A stretch of DNA of 64,000 nucleotides from the NCBI GenBank assembly GCA_019057385.1, contig JAHQJS010000005.1, positions 320,799 through 384,798 on the forward strand, given 5' to 3'. Below are positions 11,765-60,023 of this stretch, piece after piece. The notes under the pieces are model-generated. The model was not told the origin of the DNA and searched no databases. It was given only the letters and a program-made list of their open reading frames with translations. Source of the stretch: Candidatus Borrarchaeum weybense. Its GTDB lineage: Archaea > Asgardarchaeota > Sifarchaeia > Borrarchaeales > Borrarchaeaceae. Each line of letters opens with the position of its first letter. Within the stretch, counting starts at the first letter, position 1. A program made the translations under genes and the position numbers.

Positions 11765-12035
11765 TCCGATACCGGTTGATCCTGCCGGACCCGACCGCTA
11801 TTGGGATGGGATTAAGCCATGCAAGTTGTGCGCTCCTAGTTATGAAGGAGAGCGGCAAAAAGCTCTGTAACGTGTAGTTAACCTCTCCTCAGGACGGGCA
11901 TACCCTCGGGAAACTGAGGTCAATTCCCGATAGTTGATTAGGCCTGGAATGGTTTTTCTTCCAAAGGTATCTTCTCATGCGAGGATACTACCTGAGGATG
12001 GGACTGCATCTGATTAGGTAGATGGTGGGGTAACG

Positions 12036-12074
12036 TGACCTTTAGTACACTCTTACACACTATCGGTCTTATAC
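12036..12074 (+). other. 16S intron 1 (39 nt, ~E. coli 265/266)
   Basis: BHB GTAA/TTAT, bulges CG|T and AC|G, inner GACC/GGTC; removal restores GGGGTAACGGCCCACC. Confidence 0.9.
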
Positions 12075-12158
12075 GCCCACCATGCCGATAATCAGTACGG
12101 GCTGTGAGAGCAGTAGCCCGGAGATGGAGACTGAGACAACGCTCCAGGGCCTACGGGC

Positions 12159-12195
<37 letters not shown>

Positions 12196-12280
12196 TGACG
12201 GGGCCATCCCAAGTGCCATCCGATAAGGGTGGCTTTTTCTCAGTGTAAAAAGCTGGGCGAATAAGGGGAGGGCAAGGCTG

Positions 12281-12406
12281 ACTGGATTGAGGCAAATCAC
12301 TAACACTATATTCTCGATGAACTATACTTCCCTAAAACGCGGCGCTTATAGTTCATCAAAAACTCTTATGCTTATCAAACTTACAAAACGCCTCATCCAG
12401 GCCTAT
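12281..12406 (+). other. 16S intron 2 (126 nt, ~514/515)
   Basis: BHB AGGC/GCCT, inner CTGGA/TCCAG; restores GGCAAGGCTGGTGCCAGCC. Confidence 0.92.
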
Positions 12407-12614
12407 GTGCCAGCCGCCGCGGTAAAACCAGCTCCTCGAGTAGTCGGGAGTATTACTGGGCCTAAAGCGTCCGTAGCCGGCTTTGTAAGTTCCTGGTCAA
12501 ACCCAGCGGCTTAACCGTTGGCTTGCTGGGGATACTGCAAAGCTTGGGAATCAGAGAGGCCAAGGGTACTAACAGGGTAGGGGTGAAATCCTGTAATCCT
12601 GTTGGGACCACCGG

Positions 12615-12645
12615 ACAGCAGAGAGACACTCTCCTGCTGGGTGAG
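12615..12645 (+). other. 16S intron 3 (31 nt, ~722/723)
   Basis: BHB CACC/GGTG, inner CAGCAG/CTGCTG; restores GACCACCGGTGGCGAAGG. Confidence 0.92.
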
Positions 12646-12716
12646 TGGCGAAGGCGCTTGGCTGGAAGATGTCCGACGGTGAGGGACGAAAGCCAGGGGA
12701 GCGAACCGGATTAGAT

Positions 12717-12747
12717 ACTTGGTGCTAATTATTGTATCATGCTAAAA
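12717..12747 (+). other. 16S intron 4 (31 nt, ~793/794)
   Basis: BHB TTAG/CTAA; restores GGATTAGATACCCGGGTAGTCC. Confidence 0.9.
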
Positions 12748-12872
12748 ACCCGGGTAGTCCTGGCTGTAAACGATGCGAGCTAGGTGTTTGCGTGGCTACG
12801 GGCTATGCAAGTGCCGTAGAGAAGTCGTTAAGCTCGCCGCCTGGGGAGTACGGCCGCAAGGCTGAAACTTAA

Positions 12873-12934
<62 letters not shown>

Positions 12935-13040
12935 AAGCCTGCGGTTTAATTGGACTCAACGCCGGGAAGCTTACCGGGGGCGACAGCTGGATGAAAGCCA
13001 GGCTGATGACCTTGCTGGACTAGCTGAGAGGAGGTGCATG

Positions 13041-13919
13041 AGGTAGTCAGGTCGTTAGCAAAACTTTTCGTCGCTTTCCTTTTCCTCTCAATAACAAAAG
13101 TCTAGATTCTTCCTGATGTCCTTTTTAATTAAAAGGGATAAGTCAGGTTGAATTCAAATGACTATTGGCGACAAAGGAAAGTTTGTTTTACTTAAAACGA
13201 AAAGTCTCATCAATCGCATACGTCAACAGCATAATGAAACAGTTCGTGGTATTTACGAGCATGTCGCAGATCTTGTTAAATGGAATACATTTCGAGACTG
13301 GGCTTATAGAGGCTGGTCACGAATGCCTTTAGAAGTATTTAGGCGACTAAAAAGTAAATACAAACTCAAAGAATCACCAAAAACGGTTACAGAAAAACAA
13401 TGGTATACACTAACTCGAACGAGAGCCGCTGAAATAATGCATAAATGCCACCCTCATAAAGAGTGGCTATCAGAAGCCGCAAAAAAAGGCGGCGAGGCTG
13501 TAAAAGAAAAATATGGTGTTAAATATCTAACAAACCTTTCTGCAAAGGCGATTCACTCGTCATCTAGTTATAGGTATGAAGACGATGATGGAAACAAATA
13601 TCGCAGCCGCTTAGAATTATCCATCGCTAAACTACTCCGAACGCATAATTTGAAGTTTATATATGAACCAGAGATTGAGGGATATGTTCCAGATTTCAAG
13701 ATTAATAATCCCCTCATCGAAGTGTGCGGTTATTTCCGTGATAAAGATTATCTTACTCGACTTAAAGTCAAACTAACTGATTTAGTCAATAAAGGCTGGC
13801 AAATAATTCTAATATGCGAGCCTAGCAAAAAAGCAGTTCTCACTGAAGCAGTTAAAGGTATATCCATAAATGCGATTAAGACAACAGATGAGTTTCGACG
13901 ATTTCTGACTACCGGCAAA
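13041..13919 (+). mobile_element. 16S intron 6 (879 nt, ~1057/1058) carrying a nuclease ORF
   Basis: Inner stem GGTAGTCAG/CTGACTACC with BHB-like bulges; restores GGTGCATGGCCGTCGCCAG. Confidence 0.92.
13158..13919 (+). CDS. Intron-encoded PD-(D/E)xK-like endonuclease (linear reading runs to 13955; circular form ends ...TTGKR*)
   Basis: YRS.LE..IAKLL....KF.YEP.....PDF.....LIEV.G nuclease core; N-terminal HTH-like segment and KGG motif. Confidence 0.75.
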
Positions 13920-14233
13920 GCCGTCGCCAGTTCGTGCCGTGAGGTGTCCTGTTAAGTCAGGCAACGAACGAGACCCCTGCGCCTAGTTGCCAGCGGATCT
14001 CTGCGGAGATGCCGGGCACACTATGCGGACCGCAGCCGATAAGGCTGAGGAAGGAGGGGGCCACGGCAGGTCAGTATGCCCCGAATCCCCCGGGCTACAC
14101 GCGGGCTGCAATGACGGGTACAATAGGTTTCGACTCCGAGAGGAGGAGGCAATCCTCAAAACCCGTCGCAGTTGGGATCGAGCGCTGCAACTCGCGCTCG
14201 TGAACATGGAATCCCTAGTAATCGCGTGTCATC

Positions 14234-14284
<51 letters not shown>

Positions 14285-14318
14285 TCCGAGTGAGCTTTAG
14301 GCGAGGCGCGTTCCGTAG

Positions 14319-14351
14319 GCAGTATAGGACAACTGTCACATACTGACGGAA
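14319..14351 (+). other. 16S intron 7 (33 nt, tip of helix 44)
   Basis: BHB CCGT/ACGG, bulges AG|G and AA|G, inner CAGTA/TACTG; the host region is variable, so less certain. Confidence 0.75.
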
Positions 14352-14380
14352 GATCGTGTCGAACCTGGGGTTCGCAAGGA

Positions 14381-14435
<55 letters not shown>

Positions 14436-15257
14436 CGTAATTAATTTATCCTTTAAGGGCCAAGCTTGAGTCTGCTCATGCGAAAAGACTGCAATCGGGA
14501 ACAATATGATGTGAACCATAAATCACCAGGTTATACATGAAATGCCATATTTTTAGCCGCTTACATAGGTGCGAATGGAACCAGGGGCTCATTAGTGTCT
14601 GGATACATACGCCATCTGGTGGATGACTTGGTTTGGGCACTGAGGAAGGTCGTGGCAAGCTGCGATAAGCCTGGGGTAGGTGCATGCTGCCTTCGAACCC
14701 AGGATTGCCGAATAGGACTTCCAATTAAGGATTAATAACCCTTAATGATCCGTAAGGATCGGGAACCCCGTGAACGGAAACATCTTAGTAACGGGAGGAA
14801 AAGAAACCAATAGGGATTCCCTTAGTAAGGGCGACTGAACGGGGAAGAGAGCAAACTGAACCCCTTAAGGATGACTTAGGGGGGATGTGGTGTGGTAGGC
14901 CTGGTTTCGGCCTACTCAATGAAGTTGAAATGGTCTGGAACGTCCCGCCGTAGAGGGTGAAAGCCCCGTAAACGTAAATTGAGAGGTCTTATGACCAGTG
15001 TCCTTGAGTACTGTGGGCTGGATACCTCGCAGGAATCTGAGAGACACTCACTCTCAACTCTAAATATGTCCCAAATCCGATAGTGCACTAGTACCTTGAG
15101 GGAAAGTTGCAAAGTACCGCGAAAGCGGGGTTAAAAGAGCCTGAAACCAGATGGTAACAGACGTGCGCGGCCCGAAAGGGTAGAGTCTCTTTGAAGGAAC
15201 CCGGAGTAATCCGGCAGTACGAAGAGAGAGGACCAGGGTTGCGCAATCCGTCTTGAA

Positions 15258-15287
15258 ATCAGACGAGATATCCTCGTCTAACAAGAA
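15258..15287 (+). other. 23S intron A (30 nt)
   Basis: BHB CTTG/CAAG, inner AGACGAG/CTCGTCT; restores GTCTTGAAACACGGGCC. Confidence 0.9.
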
Positions 15288-15641
15288 ACACGGGCCGGGG
15301 AGTTTATGGTCGTGGCGAGTTTAAGTGGATCATCCACGTAGGCGAAGGGAAACCGACAGCACGCATCTAGGCGTACCAGCTCACCAACAGTTGGGCTGTG
15401 GTCTATACCGAACCTCATTTGTCCTAATTCTTTCAATGGCTTCGGCCAACGAGAGAGGCAGGGCGCCGAGTGGACGTATGGTCTTCATCTCGACTCAGTA
15501 GTGGGTATGGGCAACTAGTCAGGTGCGAGGTCTTAATCGGCCTGGAGTCACGATTGTAAGACCCGAAAGCGAGTGATCTAGCCCTGGGCAAGATGAAGCC
15601 AGGGGAAACTCTGGTGGAGGTCTGCAGGGGTGTTGACGTAC

Positions 15642-15676
15642 AAGGAAATGAGAGATCATACTCTCGTTCTGCGTAA
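15642..15676 (+). other. 23S intron B (35 nt, helix 35 region)
   Basis: BHB ACGT/GCGT; restores GTTGACGTACAATTCAC. Confidence 0.88.
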
Positions 15677-15716
15677 AATTCACTCCCATGACCTGGGGTT
15701 AGTGGCAAAAGACCAA

Positions 15717-16719
15717 TCGCATTAACAAATGAGCCAATAACTAGCGTTCTCTAATTCCATTAAAAGCAGCCTTTTAATACTAAATTTGATATTATCTGTG
15801 AATAGTTGAATTCGGAGAATCATTGATGACTCAAAGAAAAAAATGGACTGCATATCGCATTAACAAAGATTTTGTTCGCAACAACAAAAAACGAGAACTA
15901 GCAAAATTAGCAGCATTTTTACTTACAGACGGGGGTTTATCCAGAGATAAAAGAACATATGTCATTTATTTCACAAACAAGTCTGAAGTATTACACGAAG
16001 TGTTTGAATCTCTTATAAGAGATCTTGTCCCTCAAGCTAATATGCGAAGCTCAATGTACAAAGGTGTTAAAAGAACTTACTTTAACAGTCTAGAACTTGC
16101 TGAATTGCTTTTTGAACTATCAGATTCTTATCGAACGGCACCATGCGAATCGTATCCAGTTTGCGCTAAGATTCGCGATAAACCCGAAATGATTCCTTGT
16201 ATCAAGTGCAATCAAATACGTGGATATCCCAATGCTACGTATCCTGAGATCAGCGACTTGGAATTGCTGGAAGAAATCTTGCAAATAATTGCGGATACTG
16301 AAGGTGGACCCGTTCTTTTTATTCATAGATATCCTAAATATATCTCTATAAGAAGAAGAATTGAGATAGGATGTTCGCATCCGATTCTTAAGAAACAAAT
16401 TAAACAAATGCTGGAAAAATTAGCTATTCCTAGCAAAATCGCAAAGGATACAATTAGAATTGAAGGTAAAGGAATTAGGATCTTTCGTGACAAAATAGGC
16501 TTTCGAAAGAACGTCAAAATGAGTACTGGTAACTTCGAAGGCTATAATAAGAACAGTGTATTAGAAATTATGATTATCACTAACGAATTGATAACTAAGA
16601 AAAAGTTCTTTCCAAGTAAAGTTGATAACTTGAATGCAATGTTAATGAAGGCTGTAGAACTTTTTGATAATACTTTTTCGCGAGAACGCGTTGTTGAGTT
16701 TTTAGTTAATGGGGGTTAG
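15717..16719 (+). mobile_element. 23S intron C (1003 nt, ~789/790) encoding a LAGLIDADG homing endonuclease
   Basis: BHB GACC/GGTT, bulges AA|T and AG|A, inner CGCATTAAC/GTTAATGGG; the ORF stop TAG is the last 3 nt of the intron. Confidence 0.88.
15823..16719 (+). CDS. Two-motif LAGLIDADG homing endonuclease
   Basis: LAAFLLTDGGL...IYFTNKS..L...F and LQIIADTEGG; Cys cluster between the two domains. Confidence 0.85.
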   Translation: MMTQRKKWTAYRINKDFVRNNKKRELAKLAAFLLTDGGLSRDKRTYVIYFTNKSEVLHEVFESLIRDLVPQANMRSSMYKGVKRTYFNSLELAELLFELSDSYRTAPCESYPVCAKIRDKPEMIPCIKCNQIRGYPNATYPEISDLELLEEILQIIADTEGGPVLFIHRYPKYISIRRRIEIGCSHPILKKQIKQMLEKLAIPSKIAKDTIRIEGKGIRIFRDKIGFRKNVKMSTGNFEGYNKNSVLEIMIITNELITKKKFFPSKVDNLNAMLMKAVELFDNTFSRERVVEFLVNGG

Positions 16720-16750
16720 ATAAGGAAGGGTGTGTCCCTCCTTAGGTAAA
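16720..16750 (+). other. 23S intron D (31 nt), directly abutting intron C at the same exon site
   Basis: After C is removed: GACC/GGTA helix, bulges AA|A and AA|T, inner TAAGG/CCTTA; final product GACCAATCTAACTCGC. Confidence 0.8.
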
Positions 16751-17054
16751 TCTAACTCGCTTATAGCTGGTTCCCCCCGAAGTGCATCTCAGTGCAGTCT
16801 GATCCGAGGTAGCTGGTGGGGTAGAGCACTGATTGTGGAAAGGTGGAGGAGAAATCCTTGCCGCCGCTCTCAAACTCCGAATCTGCCAGCGCCGTAGACG
16901 GTTGGAAACGGGCGGCCGGGCGTAAGGTCCGGCGCCGAGAGAGGAACAACTCTGACTGCGGTTAAGGTCCCTAAGTGCTAGCTAAGTGTGATCATGAAGG
17001 CTGTGGGCAGTCTTAGACAGTGGGGAGGTAGGCTTAGAAGCAGCCATCCTCTAA

Positions 17055-17075
17055 ACTGCTAAAAAGCAGAGAGAA
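17055..17075 (+). other. 23S intron E (21 nt, GTPase-associated region ~1085)
   Basis: BHB CTCT/AGAG, inner CTGCT/AGCAG. Confidence 0.88.
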
Positions 17076-17675
17076 TGAACGCGTAACAGCGCACCCATTG
17101 AGACTGTCCGCGCCGAAAATGGACGGGGCTTAAGCTAGCCACCGATACCGCGGAGCTGACGAAAACTTAGCATGAATCGTCATCTCATTTTCGAATGATT
17201 TGATTTACTCATGTTAATTGAGTACTCAGTTGGTAGGGGGGCGAGCCGGTTGGGCGGAAGCTGGGCTGTGAAGTCCAGTGGACCGACCGGTTTCGCAGAT
17301 CCCGGTGGTAGTAACAGCGTAGTCGGGTGAAAATCCCGATCGCCGGAAGGGCAAGGGTTCCTCGGCAATGCGTCGTCAGCCGAGGGTTAGTCGGTCCTAA
17401 GTCTGGGCGTAAGTCGCGTAAGGCGAAAGGGTAAACGGTTTATATTCCGTTACTACGAGGATACACGCGGTAACGCAAGCCAAGATTCTGACGCTTTCGG
17501 ATAGGCCGATTAGAGCTATCGCTCTAATTAAATGTAGAAACCTCAGGAGTACCGTAATGGTGAGAATGAGGTGAATGCATGAATAGCTTTCCGTAATAGG
17601 TGAGTTCGGTCAACTCCAGGAGCCATTGAAAAAGGACTTGGAAGGATTCTTCGTATCCGTACCCAGAACTGACAC

Positions 17676-17726
17676 TTAGATCGTACAGGAACGTGACAAT
17701 CTAGTCATGCGGACGATTTAGTCAAA
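17676..17726 (+). other. 23S intron F (51 nt, ~1617/1618)
   Basis: BHB TGAC/GTCA, inner TAGATCGT/ACGATTTA; restores CTGACACAGGTG. Confidence 0.92.
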
Positions 17727-18384
17727 AGGTGCCCCTAGGTGAGCAGCCTAAGGCGTTTCGGGTGAACTCTGGGCTAGGGAAATCGGCAAATTGGCCCCGT
17801 ACCTTCGGAAGAAGGGGTGCCTACGGTCTTGGGTCGCAAACTTGGGACCGTAGGTCGCAGTGACCAGGAAGTGCTATCTGTTTAATAAAAACATAGCTAA
17901 CTGCTAGCGCGAAAGCGTGTGTACAGTTAGTGAGTCCTGGCCAGTGGCGGTAAGTTAAACCTGAGTTCAATCGGGCGAAGCTCCGCTAAACGCCGGGAGT
18001 AACTATAACTCTCTTAAGGTAGCCAAATGCCTTGCCGGATAAGTACCGGCGTGCATGAAGGGAGCAATGAGCGCTTTACTGTCCCAGCCTGGAACCCGGT
18101 GAACCCACTACCTGGCGAACAGTCCAGGGAGTCCTTGCGGGAAGAGAAGACCCCGTGGAGCTTTACTGCAGCCTGTGCCTGTGCTACGATCGTTGATGCA
18201 GAGCGTAGTCGGGAGCCGTTAATCCCAGCCTCTTCGGGGGTTGGAGTAGGCAACCTTGGAACACCGACCTTCTTTGATTGTATCGCTAACCGGAACGAAC
18301 GTTCTGGAACAAGTGCAGGTGGGCAGTTTCGCTGGGGCGGCAGACCCTTGAAAATGTATCAAGGGTGCCCAAAGGTCAGCTCAG

Positions 18385-18416
18385 AATGCAATTACGTAAG
18401 TGAGTTGCATGAGTAA
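18385..18416 (+). other. 23S intron G (32 nt)
   Basis: BHB GCTC/GAGT, inner ATGCAATT/AGTTGCAT. Confidence 0.9.
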
Positions 18417-18427
18417 GTGGGTCAGAA

Positions 18428-18470
18428 TCAACGGATGAGATTCTGGCTATGACCTTATCAGTTGCTGAAT
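18428..18470 (+). other. 23S intron H (43 nt)
   Basis: BHB TCAG/CTGA, inner CAAC/GTTG; restores GGTGGGTCAGAAATCCACC. Confidence 0.9.
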
Positions 18471-18488
18471 ATCCACCGTAGAGCGTAA

Positions 18489-18519
18489 AGGTGAAGGTGA
18501 CCACCACCTTGCCATGTAG
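18489..18519 (+). other. 23S intron I (31 nt)
   Basis: BHB GCGT/ATGT, inner AAGGTG/CACCTT; restores GAGCGTAAAGGTAAAAGC. Confidence 0.88.
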
Positions 18520-18642
18520 AGGTAAAAGCTGGCTTGACTGTATTCTGACCAGTAAAGAATGCAGGAACGAAAGTTGGGCTTAGCGATCCTCAATACCTTA
18601 TCAGTGGGGGTTTGAGGTGACAGAAAAGTTACCCCGGGGATA

Positions 18643-18756
18643 AATGCGTCAGTTTTGTGAATATAGAAAGTGTGTAGACAAAGCTTAGTAAAGTTGTATG
18701 GGTAATTTAGCTTTGACGATTGTACAACTTTATGAGCGTCTGCGGCGCATTCCCAA
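18643..18756 (+). other. 23S intron J (114 nt, A2450/A2451, peptidyl-transferase centre)
   Basis: BHB GGGA/TCCC, inner ATGCGTC/GGCGCAT; restores GGGGATAACAG. Confidence 0.92.
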
Positions 18757-18872
18757 ACAGAGTCGTCGCGGGCAAGAGCCCATATCGACCCCGCGGCTTG
18801 CTACCTCGATGTCGGCTCTTCCTATCCTCGATGTGCAGCAGCGTCGAAGGGTGGGGTTGTTCGCCCATTAAA

Positions 18873-18904
18873 AAGGAGGCGAAAAATACCTCTCTCCTTA
18901 ATAG
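18873..18904 (+). other. 23S intron K (32 nt, ~2566)
   Basis: BHB ATTA/TAAT, inner AGGAG/CTCCT. Confidence 0.9.
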
Positions 18905-19059
<155 letters not shown>

Positions 19060-19502
19060 ACAGGTTGGATTCTATCTGCAAGGACTGCCGGTGGTCTGAG
19101 GGTAGGGTGTTCTTAGTACGAGAGGAACGGAACGTCGGAGCCTCTAGTGTACCAGTTGTCCGAAAGGGCAGAGCTGGGCAGCCACGCTCTAACCGATAAG
19201 AGCTGAAAGCATCTAAGCTCGAAGCGGGTCCCGAAAAGAGACCACCAATCACCAACAGAGGAGTTAGGGTGACCGTCCGTAACTGTTGGGGACGAGGACT
19301 CCAGGAAAACACTGGTTTGATAGAGCTGAGGTGTAAGTGTCGAGGGTACAGAGATGGTACTCTTAGTATTGTACACTCGCCTAAATCCCTCCAACCTCTT
19401 GGTCATGTACATAACCGTCTCTTCGGAGATAGTTGTGTCGTGATTAATGTTGTTGGGCCGAGGCACTCAGCCTGCAGCCACTAAACGTCCGAGTGTTCAG
19501 AC

Positions 19503-36398: not shown

Positions 36399-37373
36399 TT
36401 ACATTGTCTCTTCAAAAAGTTGTGAACCTTCAACCATATTCGCTAATACATTTTCTGCTTTTTCAGGAGAAATAACCTTAAGACCGCAGTCTGGATGAAT
36501 GAATTTTATATTATCGAGTCCTATTTTTTCTACTGCAGCTTCGATATGTGCTTTTACAGTTTTAGGATCGCTTAAAACAGCATTAGCGCCAGAGATACAT
36601 CCCAATCCCAGCTTCTTACCGTGATCTTCAAAGACTTTTCGTGAAATGATGTTAATATTGTCCTTTTCTATATCCCCGTCAAAGGCAAAACTTAGGGTTT
36701 CTATATTCTCAAATTTAACGAGGATGTCCTCAAAAAGGCTTTTTGTTAATCTCCCGCATACATGCATGATTGTGTTTTCTGATTTCAGTTCTGGGGTCAA
36801 GTATTCATTTATCCATTGAATAATCTCGTTACCGAATTTTCTATAGTTGATGTAGCCTGCACCAAAACCAGGTTCATCAATTTGTACGAGGACATCTCTC
36901 TTCTGGAGTTCCTCAGCTATAGGTTTCAAAGCCCTTGATACGTCTGCATAAAGCTCTACATCTATTATACTTGAATATGGGCCTAAATTACCTTTTCCAT
37001 ACGAGACCGAGGTGGTTGCACATGTGAAGCCAAAAGTGATTGGACCTGTTATCGTAATCTTAATCTTGTTGTTTGTTTCTTCTTTCTGTCTCAGATAATT
37101 CTTAACTAGTTCTAAATCGTGAAATTTAGAAAATGCGCTGAGTTCTATAGGAGGTTTGATTTCTCCAGTGATACATGATCGATTATCTTTATGTTGTAAT
37201 CCAGGAAGTACTTCACTAAAATATGCTATCATATCATACCGTTGCTCTCCTGGAGAAATGACATCAATTCCATATTTAAGTTGTAAGTCAATAATTTTCA
37301 ATATTGAACTCTCTATGTCATTTTTATCAAAATTTGGAAAACTACCAACAACGGCATGTGTTAATCGTTTCAT
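36399..37373 (-). CDS. Cobalamin-independent methionine synthase, catalytic-domain-only type, paralog 2
   Basis: VVGSFP, GEQR.DM, TGP.T, QIDEP, HVC and PDCG. Confidence 0.85.
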   Translation of the reverse strand: MKRLTHAVVGSFPNFDKNDIESSILKIIDLQLKYGIDVISPGEQRYDMIAYFSEVLPGLQHKDNRSCITGEIKPPIELSAFSKFHDLELVKNYLRQKEETNNKIKITITGPITFGFTCATTSVSYGKGNLGPYSSIIDVELYADVSRALKPIAEELQKRDVLVQIDEPGFGAGYINYRKFGNEIIQWINEYLTPELKSENTIMHVCGRLTKSLFEDILVKFENIETLSFAFDGDIEKDNINIISRKVFEDHGKKLGLGCISGANAVLSDPKTVKAHIEAAVEKIGLDNIKFIHPDCGLKVISPEKAENVLANMVEGSQLFEETM

Positions 37374-37453
37374 TAAGAATCCCTTCTTTTATTTTCTGTT
37401 AACCTGTGTATGCAGTTTAAAAAAGATTGCGGGGCTATTTTTTATTTAATTGC

Positions 37454-38407
37454 TTAATTGATGCCCTCAAAAAGTTTTGCTCCTTCAGTCATGTTCGATA
37501 ATACCATCTCTGCTTTTTCAGGAGAAAGGGCTTTAAGCCCACAATCTGGATGAATGAATTTTATATTATCAAGTCCTATTTTTTCGACCGCAGTGCCGAT
37601 GTTTGCTTTTACAGTTTCAGGATCGCTTAAAACAGCATTAGCACCCGATATACACCCCAATCCCAGCTTCTTACCGTGATCCTCCAAGACTTTGCGAGAA
37701 ATGATGTTAATATTGTCCTTTTCAATAGAGGCGTCAAAAGCAAAACTTAGGGTTCCGATATTCTCAAACTTAACAAGAATATCTTCAAAAAGGCGTTTAG
37801 GTAAGCGACCACAGACATGCATCACCGTGTTCTCTGGCTGTAGTTCTGAGGTTATCTCATTTATCCATTGAAAAAGTTCTTTTGAGAAATCTTTCCAATT
37901 GATATAACCAGCTGAAAGACCTGGCTCATCAATTTGTACTAATGCCCCAATCTTTTGAAATTCATCGGCAATAGCTTTCAAAGCGGTTGAAACGTCCGCG
38001 TAAAGTTGCAAATCTTTTACAGTTGAATATGGGCTGCCTTCTAAACCATTTAATCCACATGAGAAGCCTAAAGTGACAGGACCAGTGATTGTCAGTTTGA
38101 TTTTATTCGTTTTCCTATTTTGTTCGAAATAATTTTTAACAAATATAAAGTCCTTAATCTTCGAGAATGTGGTGAGCTCTTTCGGGGATTTGATTTTTCC
38201 AGTGACATATGAGTTGGTGCCTTCATGTTTTAATCCAGGAAGCACTTCACTAAAATATGCGATCATATCATACCGTTGTTCTCCTGGAGAAATGACATCA
38301 ATCCCATATTTAAGTTGTAAGTCAATAATTTTCAATATTGAACTCTCTATGTCGTTTTCATCAAAATTTGGAAAACTTCCAACAACGGCGTGTGTTAATC
38401 GTTTCAT
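37454..38407 (-). CDS. Cobalamin-independent methionine synthase, catalytic-domain-only type, paralog 1
   Basis: Same motifs; tandem duplicate. Confidence 0.85.
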   Translation of the reverse strand: MKRLTHAVVGSFPNFDENDIESSILKIIDLQLKYGIDVISPGEQRYDMIAYFSEVLPGLKHEGTNSYVTGKIKSPKELTTFSKIKDFIFVKNYFEQNRKTNKIKLTITGPVTLGFSCGLNGLEGSPYSTVKDLQLYADVSTALKAIADEFQKIGALVQIDEPGLSAGYINWKDFSKELFQWINEITSELQPENTVMHVCGRLPKRLFEDILVKFENIGTLSFAFDASIEKDNINIISRKVLEDHGKKLGLGCISGANAVLSDPETVKANIGTAVEKIGLDNIKFIHPDCGLKALSPEKAEMVLSNMTEGAKLFEGIN

Positions 38408-39616: not shown

Positions 39617-39899
39617 ACGATTTGATAAATAGGAGTATTTCTAAGATAACTGTTCTGTGTTGAGTGTCAATCGTTAAAATTCTCAACTCAATTAAAATGC
39701 TTAGAGGATTGATAAGCATTAAAAATATTTTATTAAACTAAATATAATCGTAACTTCTTCTCCTTTTTGTTTCTTAAAACGCAATTTACTTCGATCATTT
39801 TGTTTTCTTTATTCTTTGCGTAGTTTTCCTCTATACTTGTCTTTTGTAAAGGATAACTATATATATAACTTGTCATATAGTACACAATGCATTGTCATA

Positions 39900-39939
39900 C
39901 AATGATGAATATCTTTGCTTAAATAGATATTCATCATTG
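39900..39939. repeat. Perfect 15-bp inverted repeat
   Basis: CAATGATGAATATCT-N10-AGATATTCATCATTG. Confidence 0.85.
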
Positions 39940-39963
39940 AAATCATTGACATATGACAAGGCA

Positions 39964-40070
39964 TGAGGCGAGTTCACGCCAAGTGTAAGGGTGTCATTAT
40001 CTGAAGAGCTATTTGAATGGTTCTCAAAGAATTGTGGCCCCAACGCCTCAAGCGCCGAGGAGGGGCGCTC
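39964..40070 (+). ncRNA. Candidate structured 5' leader RNA, copy A
   Basis: Multi-stem fold covarying with copy B (59705-59810, minus strand), ending in the GAGGAGG-loop hairpin. Confidence 0.6.
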
Positions 40071-40096
40071 AATAAGTACCCAGGTTAAGGAAAGGA

Positions 40097-40627
40097 GTGA
40101 ACATGATAAAAGATGAGTCTAAAGAACTATTAGAGAAAACCCCAGAAAAAACGCGTTGGGAAATAGCTACAAAAACTTACACTGGATCGGTTGCAGGCTA
40201 TGATATATTTGTTGGGCAAGCTATGGGTAAGGAAAAGTGGATAGAGCTACATGATAATCTTTGGGGTGAAGGCGGTAAGATGACGTATCCACAAATTAAA
40301 GAGGCCTTCAACATCGAAGTAAAAGATGCTCCAAGTGCAGGTACCTTGGTTGGTTTAGTTGCATTACTAGGACAGGGACCTGAATATGAATGGGAAATTA
40401 CCGAGTCAACGCCAGAAAGACAAGTCTTAAGGATAACTAAATGTCCGTGGTTCAACAGATACACAGAATTTGGCTTGAAGCCCGAGGACATGATTTGTGC
40501 TGGTGGCCATATAGCATTCGTGGGAGAGGGAATCAAGGCTGTAAATCCCAAAATAAAACACACACTTACAAAAGCAATGCCATGGGGAGATTCATACTGC
40601 GAAGGGGTCTTCGAGTTAGAAGAATAG
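40097..40627 (+). CDS. V4R/ATC-hydrolase-like domain protein (short subfamily)
   Basis: TKCPWF, C.GGH and KAMPWGDSYCE. Confidence 0.8.
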   Translation: MNMIKDESKELLEKTPEKTRWEIATKTYTGSVAGYDIFVGQAMGKEKWIELHDNLWGEGGKMTYPQIKEAFNIEVKDAPSAGTLVGLVALLGQGPEYEWEITESTPERQVLRITKCPWFNRYTEFGLKPEDMICAGGHIAFVGEGIKAVNPKIKHTLTKAMPWGDSYCEGVFELEE

Positions 40628-40692
40628 TAAGCAGTTAAATCCTGTGTGATTTTGAACCTTATATCTTCTCCATTTTTTTTTGGAAATTTCAA

Positions 40693-40712
40693 AGCGCCGA
40701 GGAGGGGCGCTC
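40693..40712 (+). promoter_or_regulatory. Conserved leader hairpin GCGCC-GAGGAGG-GGCGC
   Basis: Recurs before each cassette gene, just after a poly-T tract. Confidence 0.75.
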
Positions 40713-40745
40713 AATAAGTTCCCAACTTAAAGGAAGGATGAAAAA

Positions 40746-41267: not shown

Positions 41268-41336
41268 GCGTAAACAGCAAGTTCTTGTGCGGTCTTGAAT
41301 CTCATACTCTCAATATTTTTTTTGGAAAATGTCTAC

Positions 41337-41355
41337 GCGCCGAGGAGGGGCGCTC
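41337..41355 (+). promoter_or_regulatory. Conserved leader hairpin
   Basis: GCGCCGAGGAGGGGCGCTC. Confidence 0.75.
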
Positions 41356-41388
41356 TACAAATACCCAGGGTAAGGAGAGGAGGAAAAA

Positions 41389-41895: not shown

Positions 41896-41968
41896 GCTTA
41901 AACCGTAGGCTTTTGTGTGGAAAATACAAATCCCATACAGTCTCCACATTTTTTTTTGGAAATGTTTA

Positions 41969-41988
41969 AGCGCCGAGGAGGGGCGCTC
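41969..41988 (+). promoter_or_regulatory. Conserved leader hairpin
   Basis: AGCGCCGAGGAGGGGCGCTC. Confidence 0.75.
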
Positions 41989-42021
41989 TACAAATACCCA
42001 GGGTAAGGAGAGGAGGAAAAA

Positions 42022-42534: not shown

Positions 42535-42601
42535 GCCCATTAAACTGGCTCTAGTGCAGTCTTGACCCTTATATCTTCTCCACTTTTTTTGGAAATGTCT
42601 A

Positions 42602-42621
42602 AATGCCGAGGAGGGGCGTTC
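42602..42621 (+). promoter_or_regulatory. Conserved leader hairpin, compensatory variant
   Basis: AATGCC-GAGGAGG-GGCGTT keeps the pairing (A-U, U-G). Confidence 0.75.
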
Positions 42622-59672: not shown

Positions 59673-59704
59673 TTTCCATCCTCTCCTCAATTTGGGTACT
59701 TATA

Positions 59705-59810
59705 GTGCGCCCCTCCTCGGCGCTTAGGGTGTAAAGAGTCACTTTAATGAGAGTCCTTCAAGTTCACTCTTTCAATAGTGACTCCTGTTCATTTGACTGA
59801 ACTTACCCTA
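59705..59810 (-). ncRNA. Candidate structured 5' leader RNA, copy B
   Basis: TAGGGT/ACCCTA, GTTCA/TGAAC, AGGAGTCACT/AGTGACTCTT and AGAGT/ACTCT stems, then GCGCC-GAGGAGG-GGCGC. Confidence 0.6.
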
Positions 59811-59814
59811 GGAC

Positions 59815-59828
59815 TTGTCATATGACAA
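59815..59828. promoter_or_regulatory. Palindrome TTGTCATATGACAA (candidate operator)
   Basis: Perfect 14-bp palindrome; near-identical TTGACATATGACAA at 39946-39959 in the same position relative to leader A. Confidence 0.6.
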
Positions 59829-60023
59829 TTAAAAAATTAAAATTGCCATTAAATGACAAGTCAAAAATATATTTATAGCAAGTTCTATATATAGTTTTTG
59901 CAAATTAATACTTTACAAATATCTAGTTTATGCTACATATAAGTAACGGCGTGAAAGACTTTCATAACTACAAGGAAAATCGAAATTGTCTCCCTCCATC
60001 ACCCCCTAAAATAGGATTTATTT

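What the first reader, a model, noticed from the sequence alone, without database searches (positions are those of the whole stretch)
39946..40070. Covarying ~110-nt leader RNA shared by two distant loci (riboswitch-like candidate)
Seen: the region before the first cassette and the region before the 59-kb paralog (59705-59828, minus) align end to end with diverged sequence but the same stems. P1 is TGAGGCG/CGCCTCA versus TAGGGT/ACCCTA. P2 is CAC/GTG versus GTTCA/TGAAC. P3 is GGG(T)GTCAT/GTGGCCCC versus AGGAGTCACT/AGTGACTCTT. P4 is GAGCTATT/AATGGTTC versus AGAGT/ACTCT. The GAGGAGG hairpin follows directly. G-U pairs work on the sense strand only, which favours RNA over a DNA cruciform. Established: very few riboswitch classes are known in archaea. 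Inference: a new cis-regulatory RNA at the head of these transcription units.
Basis: partly seen in the sequence, partly recalled or inferred. Interest (0 to 1): 0.85.

Follow-up and report, generated by a model that had tools for sequence, protein, structure and literature searches.

The report
Structured mRNA leader in Asgard archaeon
The two look-alike stretches are real copies of a folded, roughly 90-base RNA domain in the untranslated leaders of three related gene clusters of a Borrarchaeum-type Asgard archaeon; it is an uncatalogued, probably regulatory RNA, but nothing yet shows that it senses a metabolite as a riboswitch would.

Summary
Window 39964-40050 (+) and 59725-59810 (-) fold into the same three-way junction: closing stem P1, small hairpin P2, long arm P3/P4. 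The invariant GCGCC-GAGGAGG-GGCGC hairpin follows directly.

- **Copies.** A third copy lies elsewhere in the genome. Orthologues in Ca. Borrarchaeum yapensis and in metagenomes bring the total to six distinct sequences.
- **Covariation.** 85% of cells pair, against 38-51% when partners are slid. Nine pairs change on both sides. The depth is too small for a real covariation test.
- **Databases.** There is no Rfam match. A covariance model finds the full domain only in this genus.
- **Transcription start.** All copies share a conserved TATA-type promoter with TTGTCAT operator repeats about 90 nt upstream of P1. The predicted start is therefore upstream of P1, but no reads confirm it.
- **Downstream hairpin and tail.** These form a separate module, widespread in Asgard archaea. 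The scan had already noted it on neighbouring DNA of this genome.
- **Possible coupling.** The 3' strand of P1 resembles the 16S rRNA 3' end (CCUCC). If freed, it could pair with the hairpin's GGAGG loop or the ribosome-binding site.

My reading is a cis-acting leader domain that gates the ribosome-binding module. A riboswitch is possible (about 0.15) but unsupported: the junction is not conserved, no balanced alternative fold exists, and no ligand clue was found.

The parts
39852..39875 (+). Locus A: conserved BRE/TATA-like box GATAACTATATATATAAC followed by a TTGTCA operator half-site. This is the predicted promoter.
   Evidence: The box is conserved in copies A, A', A'', B, C and C'. A genome-wide search for it finds only the three leader loci plus one partial match.
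39890..39899 (+). Locus A: CATTGTCATA half-site at the predicted transcription start (about 26 nt after the TATA centre).
   Evidence: Alignment of the upstream regions. The start site is inferred from the usual archaeal TATA-to-start spacing and is not measured.
39900..39939 (+). Locus A: 15-bp inverted repeat (P0), CAATGATGAATATCT / AGATATTCATCATTG. It is either an extra 5' hairpin of the leader or a DNA operator.
   Evidence: Whole-leader fold. It is kept in A' and A'' with one compensatory change and is absent from B.
39946..39960 (+). Locus A: palindrome TTGACATATGACAAG, just 5' of P1. It is a probable protein operator and is invariant in sequence.
   Evidence: Related half-sites also lie upstream of the TATA box, which points to DNA-level binding.
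39964..40050 (+). Locus A: leader domain, a three-way junction. P1 is 39964-39970 / 40044-40050. P2 is 39975-39977 / 39983-39985. P3 is 39989-39997 / 40034-40041. P4 is 40005-40012 / 40017-40024.
   Evidence: Minimum-free-energy fold; z -3.7 for the domain alone; covariance-model score 142.7 bits; pair counts.
40052..40068 (+). Locus A: invariant core hairpin GCGCC-GAGGAGG-GGCGC. It belongs to a separate, widespread leader module.
40072..40082 (+). Locus A: conserved tail ATAAGTACCCA of the core module.
   Evidence: UACCCA starts at a fixed +8 from the stem in 34 copies of this type.
40087..40105 (+). Locus A: purine-rich ribosome-binding site AAGGAAAGGAG and the likely ATG start (40103) of the first V4R/ATC-hydrolase-like gene.
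   Evidence: The 16S 3' end is GAUCACCUCCU.
59876..59899 (-). Locus B: the same BRE/TATA-like box, AAAAACTATATATAGAAC, plus a half-site.
59814..59828 (-). Locus B: palindrome TTGTCATATGACAAG.
59725..59810 (-). Locus B: leader domain. P1 is 59805-59810 / 59725-59730. P2, P3 and P4 are as in the fold.
   Evidence: Fold; z -3.4; covariance-model score 117.9 bits.
59693..59723 (-). Locus B: core hairpin (59707-59723) and tail ATAAGTACCCA (59693-59703). The likely ATG start is at 59672-59670.

Best explanation
The region is a genus-specific folded domain inside a 5' untranslated leader of about 210 nt. The leader heads three paralogous transcription units (A and B in the window, C elsewhere in the genome) that encode small V4R/ATC-hydrolase-like proteins in a Borrarchaeum-type Asgard archaeon.

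Order of elements. Each unit has a conserved TATA-type promoter flanked by TTGTCAT operator repeats, which give transcriptional control by a DNA-binding protein. Then come one or two palindromic hairpins, the three-way-junction domain (P1, P2, P3/P4), the Asgard-wide core module (GCGCC-GAGGAGG-GGCGC hairpin plus AUAAGUACCCA tail), the ribosome-binding site and the start codon.

Proposed role (inferred, not shown). The domain acts in cis on the core module and ribosome-binding site. The 3' strand of P1 ends 1-3 nt before the core hairpin. It is a CU-rich copy of the 16S rRNA 3' end (CGCCUCC, CACCUCC, CACUCC). While P1 is closed this strand is locked away, the core hairpin forms and the ribosome-binding site is free. 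If P1 opens, the strand can pair with the GGAGG loop, which breaks the core hairpin, or with the ribosome-binding site. The trigger could be a protein, a small molecule or the order of folding during transcription; it is unknown.
For: Shown:
- The same fold is found in three paralogues and three further orthologues.
- 85% of cells pair against 38-51% with slid partners. Nine pairs change on both sides, in P1, outer P3, the 3-bp helix between P3 and P4, and inner P4.
- The alifold z-score is -6.5 on a MAFFT alignment not fitted to the model, though that consensus recovers P3/P4 and not P1.
- Sense-strand fold z-scores are -3.0 to -3.9 in five copies and -1.8 in C'.
- The conserved promoter and operators lie about 90 nt upstream of P1 in all copies and only at these loci.
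- In whole-leader folds the domain folds as a self-contained unit next to the core hairpin.
- The 16S 3' end is GAUCACCUCCU, and the P1 3' strands resemble it.
- When the core's own 5' strand is blocked, the P1 3' strand pairs with GGAGG. The energies are -9.8, -13.2, -9.5 and -8.8 kcal/mol in four copies, against -10.1 to -13.2 for the core hairpin.
- First-gene leaders of this genus tend to carry such CU-rich flanks; copies inside cassettes do not.
- Unrelated 'type-2' leaders of the genus also close a stem right before the core.
Against: - With the whole leader present, P1 is strongly favoured. Blocking its 5' strand costs 5.7 to 16.8 kcal/mol in four copies, so nothing predicts spontaneous switching.
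- In copy B the competing pairing is weak (-4.2 kcal/mol).
- The competitor energies of most copies lie only around the 5th-10th percentile of random flanks.
- The predicted accessibility of the ribosome-binding site is the same with and without the domain.
- Only six related sequences from one genus exist, and the B orthologue is identical, so the covariation statistics are weak.
- No transcript ends or expression data cover the leader.
Confidence: 0.45

Rival explanations
1. It is a true riboswitch. The three-way junction is an aptamer for a small molecule linked to the V4R/ATC-hydrolase-like proteins. Ligand binding stabilises P1 and keeps the CCUCC strand away from the GGAGG loop or ribosome-binding site, giving a translational ON switch like the add adenine riboswitch.
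For: - The shape is a three-way junction with a closing P1.
- The gene association is consistent.
- The P1 3' strand is complementary to the loop or ribosome-binding site.
- Some unpaired letters are conserved: the UGA of the P4 loop, and GA / CA in the P3-P4 internal loop.
- There is no Rfam match, so it would be a new class.
Against: - The junction strands J2/3 and J3/1 differ in length and sequence even among the A orthologues.
- P1 is predicted to be stable without any ligand.
- No conserved alternative fold and no terminator follow the domain.
- The domain is limited to one genus and six sequences.
- The promoter already carries protein operators.
- The function of the downstream proteins is unknown, so no ligand can be proposed.
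Confidence: 0.15
2. It is a passive structural element. The domain only keeps the long leader folded, which protects the 5' part of the mRNA from nucleases. It also keeps upstream CU-rich sequence from disturbing the core hairpin and ribosome-binding site. There is no switching.
For: - P1 is strongly favoured in every copy.
- The accessibility of the ribosome-binding site is unchanged by the domain.
- Leaders of other first genes in the genus have unrelated sequences but the same plan of a closing stem that abuts the core.
- C' has partly degraded P3 and inner P4 and scores only 88.6 bits, as expected under loose constraint.
Against: - A simple insulator would not need a CU-rich 16S-like strand at all.
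- The sequences in P4 (GAAGAG...CUCUCA, loop UGA) and P2 (UUCA...UGAA) are conserved across paralogues that are 51-59% identical. This suggests specific contacts.
Confidence: 0.25
3. It is a protein-binding operator on the RNA. A regulator, perhaps one of the encoded V4R-like proteins or a general RNA-binding protein, recognises the conserved P3-P4 internal loop or the P4 loop. This would give feedback control of translation or stability, as ribosomal-protein leaders and the L7Ae leader do.
For: - Sequence is conserved on both strands of lower P4 and in its loop.
- The three units form a small regulon.
- In other Asgard genera the adjacent core hairpin carries a full k-turn consensus, as in L7Ae-controlled archaeal leaders (PMC6298567, PMC5539422).
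Against: - No k-turn or other known protein-binding motif fits the P3-P4 internal loop (read directly from the sequence).
- The k-turn signature is missing from the core in this genus.
- No RNA-binding protein gene is linked to the loci.
Confidence: 0.12
4. The RNA has no function. The likeness reflects duplication of a promoter-plus-leader block together with the genes, and the stems arise by chance or from DNA-level palindromes.
For: - The copies are paralogues that also share their promoter and operators.
- The antisense strands of B, A' and C' fold about as well as the sense strands.
- The alignment is small, and part of it was fitted to the model.
Against: - The domains are only 51-65% identical between paralogues, yet 85% of cells pair against 38-51% with slid partners.
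- P1 uses three different sequences at the same place.
- The z-score is -6.5 on an unfitted alignment.
- The stems are not palindromes of the operator type.
Confidence: 0.08

Closest known systems
Purine riboswitch, translational ON type (add adenine riboswitch, Rfam RF00167)
   Same: Both are three-way junctions closed by a P1 in a 5' leader. In both, the 3' side of P1 can pair with ribosome-binding sequence when P1 is open.
   Different: - No Rfam match, even at E<=5.
- The junction is not conserved.
- No conserved loop-loop pairing.
- One arm is long and interrupted.
- P1 is predicted stable without a ligand.
- Ligand binding is untested.
Asgard-wide core leader module: GCGCC-GAGGAGG-GGCGC hairpin plus AUACCCA tail
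   Same: It lies directly downstream and is part of the same leader. It is always present where the domain is present.
   Different: - It is a separate module. It occurs 11 times in this genome, mostly without the domain.
- It occurs in 27 of 400 genomes of the phylum, before unrelated genes.
- The 90-nt domain is confined to one genus.
L7Ae-binding k-turn stem-loops in archaeal 5' leaders (Daume 2017, PMC5539422; Huang 2019, PMC6298567)
   Same: Both are hairpins next to the ribosome-binding site in archaeal leaders. [quoted passage not shown]
   Different: In this genus the flanks are AA and NNN-AYAAR, so the defining G:A pairs are missing. The 90-nt domain itself contains no k-turn.
Autoregulatory ribosomal-protein mRNA leaders (structured cis-regulatory leaders bound by a protein)
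   Same: Both are lineage-restricted, multi-stem leader structures upstream of the ribosome-binding site of an operon.
   Different: The genes here are not ribosomal, no mimicry of an rRNA protein-binding site was identified, and no binding partner is known.

Membership tests
Riboswitch (generic definition) | A conserved aptamer fold supported by covariation across many lineages | tested here: inconclusive
   The fold is kept in 6 distinct sequences of one genus, with 9 pairs changed on both sides. None is found in 151 genomes of the phylum outside that genus. This is too shallow for a statistical covariation test.
Riboswitch (generic definition) | Highly conserved unpaired nucleotides that form a ligand pocket | tested here: not met
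   Junction strands J2/3 and J3/1 vary in length and sequence even among orthologues. Only scattered invariant unpaired letters remain, in the P4 loop and the internal loop.
Riboswitch (generic definition) | An expression platform with mutually exclusive, energetically balanced folds | tested here: inconclusive
   The P1 3' strand can pair with the GGAGG loop or the ribosome-binding site. The P1 state is favoured by 5.7-16.8 kcal/mol in four copies, and the competing pairing is weak in B. No terminator is present.
Riboswitch (generic definition) | Direct binding of a small molecule | not testable with these tools
   This needs in-line probing, SHAPE or calorimetry.
Riboswitch (generic definition) | Consistent association with genes of one pathway | tested here: met
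   All six copies precede V4R/ATC-hydrolase-like (PF14196) gene clusters; in C a DUF3303 gene comes first. The pathway itself is unknown.
Any Rfam 15 family | A match to a curated covariance model | tested here: not met
   Nothing in the region at gathering scores. At E<=5 on eight loci that hold leaders, the only match is a chance miRNA hit outside the domain.
k-turn / L7Ae operator | A 3-nt bulge followed by tandem G:A and A:G pairs flanking a helix | tested here: not met
   Core hairpins of this genus have AA on the 5' side and NNN-AYAAR on the 3' side (34 copies). The consensus is met only in other genera, where 26 of 31 copies have 5' GA and 29 of 31 have 3' RAUGA.
Cis-acting structured 5' leader | It lies between the transcription start and the start codon on the coding strand | tested here: inconclusive
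   The only conserved promoter is about 90 nt upstream of P1. The single RNA run holds contigs of gene 2 only and says nothing about the leader.

The most novel reading that the evidence does not exclude
The three-way junction is the aptamer of a new, Asgard-specific riboswitch class. It senses a small molecule handled by the V4R/ATC-hydrolase-like proteins. It controls translation by holding or releasing a CCUCC copy of the 16S 3' end, which can mask the GGAGG-displaying core hairpin.
Probability: 0.15. Interest if true: 0.85.

Novelty: new member of a known kind. Interest (0 to 1): 0.45.

Why it matters
Almost nothing is known about post-transcriptional control in Asgard archaea, the closest prokaryotic relatives of eukaryotes, and very few cis-regulatory RNAs are described in archaea at all.

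This leader is a concrete, compact object of about 210 nt with a defined fold. It combines three layers that can be tested at the bench:
- an operator-rich promoter;
- a genus-specific folded domain;
- a phylum-wide leader module.

If the domain proves to gate that module, it would show how the module is used. It would also give a handle on the unknown V4R/ATC-like gene family. If it binds a metabolite, it would be a new archaeal riboswitch class.

Tried and rejected
- **Rfam.** Searches at gathering scores and at E<=5 gave no family.
- **Literature.** Searches for the hairpin sequence and for Asgard riboswitches or leaders found nothing relevant.
- **RNA evidence.** One wetland metatranscriptome, held as contigs only, covers two 150-nt pieces of cassette gene 2 and nothing of the leader. 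It gives no information on starts or ends.
- **Deeper alignment.** I tried the covariance model on 7 relatives and on 151 genomes of the phylum, a pattern scan of the metagenome and genome collections, and 12 contig look-ups of protein homologues. These yielded only three extra distinct copies (A', A'', C'). Several look-ups returned no DNA.
- **Homology with leaders of other Asgard genera.** Only the core matches (17-35 bits). A GAG...CUCUC hairpin recurs there, but homology could not be established.
- **Upstream ORF.** A 13-codon ORF in copy A is not kept in A' or B (read from the sequence).
- **k-turn in the P3-P4 internal loop.** The registers do not fit.
- **Loop-loop pairing of P2 and P4.** 4 bp in B and 3 bp in A, not conserved.
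- **Pairing of the UACCC tail with GGGUR in the domain.** Present in each copy but at non-homologous places (and my reading).
- **GUUCAC pairing with GUGAAC before the start codon.** Found only in copy A.
- **Local hairpin competing with P1.** GGCG/CGCC in A and GGGGGUG/CACCCCC in C; it decays in A'' and is absent in B.
- **Second promoter inside P0.** The TATA-like loop is not kept in A''.
- **NCBIfam naming of the downstream proteins.** No hits.

Full report
**1. What is there**

The window is part of contig C5 of a 4.18-Mb archaeal genome with 37% G+C and intron-rich rRNA genes. Leaders identical or nearly identical to those found here lie on contigs of the MAG 'Candidatus Borrarchaeum yapensis'. 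That organism is an Asgard archaeon of the class Borrarchaeia, so this genome belongs to that genus or close to it.

Each folds on its own into the same architecture:
- a closing stem P1;
- a small hairpin P2;
- a long interrupted arm P3/P4;
- directly afterwards, a GC hairpin with the loop GAGGAGG.

**2. Is it more than chance?**

Stability of single copies:
- The domain alone (A 39962-40050, B 59725-59812) folds 3.4-3.7 standard deviations better than dinucleotide shuffles.

More copies:
- A third copy, C, lies on contig C4 before a DUF3303 gene and another ATC-hydrolase-like gene.
- A covariance model built from A, A', B and C scores above 110 bits only at A, B and C in this genome and at A' and B' in a sister genome. 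B' is identical to B.
- Pattern scans and contig look-ups add C' (88.6 bits) and A'' (125 bits) from metagenomes.
- Nothing outside the genus reaches more than about 35 bits in the loci tested, and that score comes from the hairpin and tail alone. No genome outside the genus matched at E<=1e-7 among 151 searched.

Covariation on the six distinct sequences:
- 85.3% of cells form standard pairs, against 38-51% when the 3' partners are slid.
- Nine pairs change on both sides, in P1, outer P3, the 3-bp helix between P3 and P4, and inner P4.
- 8 of 500 shuffles reach the observed number of such pairs, and none reaches the cell count or the covariation score.
- On a MAFFT alignment of five copies, not fitted to any structure, the consensus folding energy lies 6.6 standard deviations below column shuffles. 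That consensus recovers P3/P4. In place of P1 it shows a local hairpin, driven by copies C and C'.

The paralogous domains are only 51-65% identical. The structure is therefore maintained, but six related sequences cannot carry a formal covariation test.

- P2 is conserved in sequence (UUCA...UGAA) rather than covarying.
- The strand asymmetry holds for A and C only.

**3. Context: promoter, operators and the true 5' end**

All copies share a box GAAAACTATATATATAAC about 90 nt upstream of P1. TTGTCAT-type half-sites lie on both sides of it, and a palindrome TTGWCATATGACAAG lies just before P1.
- In the whole genome this box occurs only at the three leader loci, plus one partial match.
- With the usual archaeal spacing, transcription would start near 39890 (A) and 59860 (B). 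That gives a leader of about 210 nt, which also holds a 15-bp inverted repeat in A (39900-39939).
- Half-sites lie upstream of the TATA box and do not vary. I therefore read them as DNA operators of an unknown regulator.
- The start site is inferred. The only RNA run available holds contigs of cassette gene 2 and nothing of the leader.

**4. The hairpin that follows is a separate module**

GCGCC-GAGGAGG-GGCGC plus AYAARUACCCA and a purine-rich ribosome-binding site occurs 11 times in this genome.
- It stands before each gene of the cassette, where it follows a run of 7-9 T and has no long leader.
- Allowing at most one mismatch, the 17-mer is found in 27 of 400 genomes of the phylum.
- There it precedes unrelated genes, often for secreted proteins.
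- The scan had already noted this module on neighbouring DNA of the same genome.
- In other genera its flanks (GA ... RAUGA) match the k-turn consensus described for L7Ae-controlled leaders (PMC6298567). In this genus they do not.

**5. How the domain may work**

The 16S rRNA ends in GAUCACCUCCU. The 3' strand of P1 ends 1-3 nt before the core hairpin. It reads CGCCUC, CGCCUCC, CGCCUCC, CACCUCC and CACUCC in five copies and ACCCUA in B. It therefore resembles the anti-Shine-Dalgarno end.

What the strand could do if freed:
- It can pair with the GGAGG loop and break the core hairpin. The energies are -9.8, -13.2, -9.5, -4.2, -7.8 and -8.8 kcal/mol, against -10.1 to -13.2 for the core hairpin.
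- In A', and more weakly in C', it can instead pair with the ribosome-binding site. In C it is the 3' strand of P2 that does so.
- First-gene leaders of the genus are enriched for such flanks, and cassette-internal copies are not. Most values, however, lie only near the 5th-10th percentile of random flanks.

This gives a plausible coupling. With P1 closed, the core and ribosome-binding site are intact. With P1 open, they are masked.

Against a spontaneous switch:
- With the whole leader present, P1 wins by 5.7-16.8 kcal/mol in four copies.
- The predicted accessibility of the ribosome-binding site does not change when the domain is removed.

**6. Riboswitch or not**

In favour:
- the three-way junction;
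- the consistent gene neighbourhood;
- the anti-SD-like P1 strand;
- the absence from Rfam.

Against:
- the junction strands vary even among orthologues;
- there is no balanced alternative fold and no terminator;
- the distribution is one genus only;
- protein operators sit on the same promoter;
- the downstream proteins have no assigned function, so no ligand can be guessed.

I put the riboswitch reading at about 0.15, a gating cis-regulatory domain with an unknown trigger at about 0.45, and a passive structural role at about 0.25.

**7. Verdict**

This is a real, uncatalogued structured leader domain. It is a new member of the known kind 'cis-acting mRNA leader structures'. Its interest is moderate, because it offers a testable entry into Asgard post-transcriptional control. 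The riboswitch label is premature.

Noticed in passing
L009, L010, L014, L015, L019, L033-L047, L082-L086 (other Asgard genera); compare window 40050-40082: In other genera the core hairpin is flanked by GA on the 5' side (26 of 31 copies) and RAUGA on the 3' side (29 of 31). [quoted passage not shown] In this genus the flanks are AA and NNN-AYAAR, with no G:A pairs.
   Followed up: partly
window 40628-40745, 41268-41388, 41896-42021, 42535-42620: The gaps between cassette genes share a box CYTATAYNTCTCC, a run of 7-9 T and GGAAAT about 10 nt before the core hairpin. The T run looks like an archaeal terminator. The TATA-like box at the right distance suggests that each gene may also have its own promoter, with the hairpin at the very 5' end of the mRNA.
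   Followed up: no
L033-L046 (genus g10): In this large genus, 11 of the 65 genomes searched hold the 17-mer, each once. In most of the loci fetched it stands before a secreted S15/CocE-type peptidase-like gene (...RDGVxLYTRIYLPG...TRTPYGIG...), about 105 nt after a strong TATA box.
   Followed up: partly
L036-L038 (genus g71): Here a small hairpin lies between the UACCCAAA tail and the start codon, and its 3' strand abuts or overlaps the ribosome-binding purines. It covaries (CCGUC/GAUGG versus CCGCC/GGCGG). This looks like a lineage-specific expression platform of the core module.
   Followed up: no
window 39972-39977 and 40097-40102: In copy A only, GUUCAC in the domain is complementary to GUGAAC between the ribosome-binding site and the ATG. 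With 50 nt of downstream sequence, the minimum-free-energy fold uses this long-range pairing instead of P1.
   Followed up: partly
window 59691-59899 versus L012 / L087 / L090: The promoter-to-hairpin stretch of locus B compared here (about 175 nt) is letter-for-letter identical in the Ca. Borrarchaeum yapensis MAG and in a metagenome contig; the only difference seen is one letter in the tail. Locus A is only 76% identical to its orthologue. Possible causes are recent transfer, strong constraint, or shared contigs between bins.
   Followed up: no
window 36399-38407 (-): Two tandem genes for short MetE-like proteins (Meth_synt_2 catalytic domain only) and a thioredoxin-like gene lie next to the V4R/ATC-like cluster. 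This hints at methyl-transfer or thiol chemistry.
   Followed up: no
window 11769-19398: The 16S and 23S rRNA genes are 2666 and 4804 nt long, against models of 1478 and 2987 positions. They are heavily interrupted by introns.
   Followed up: no
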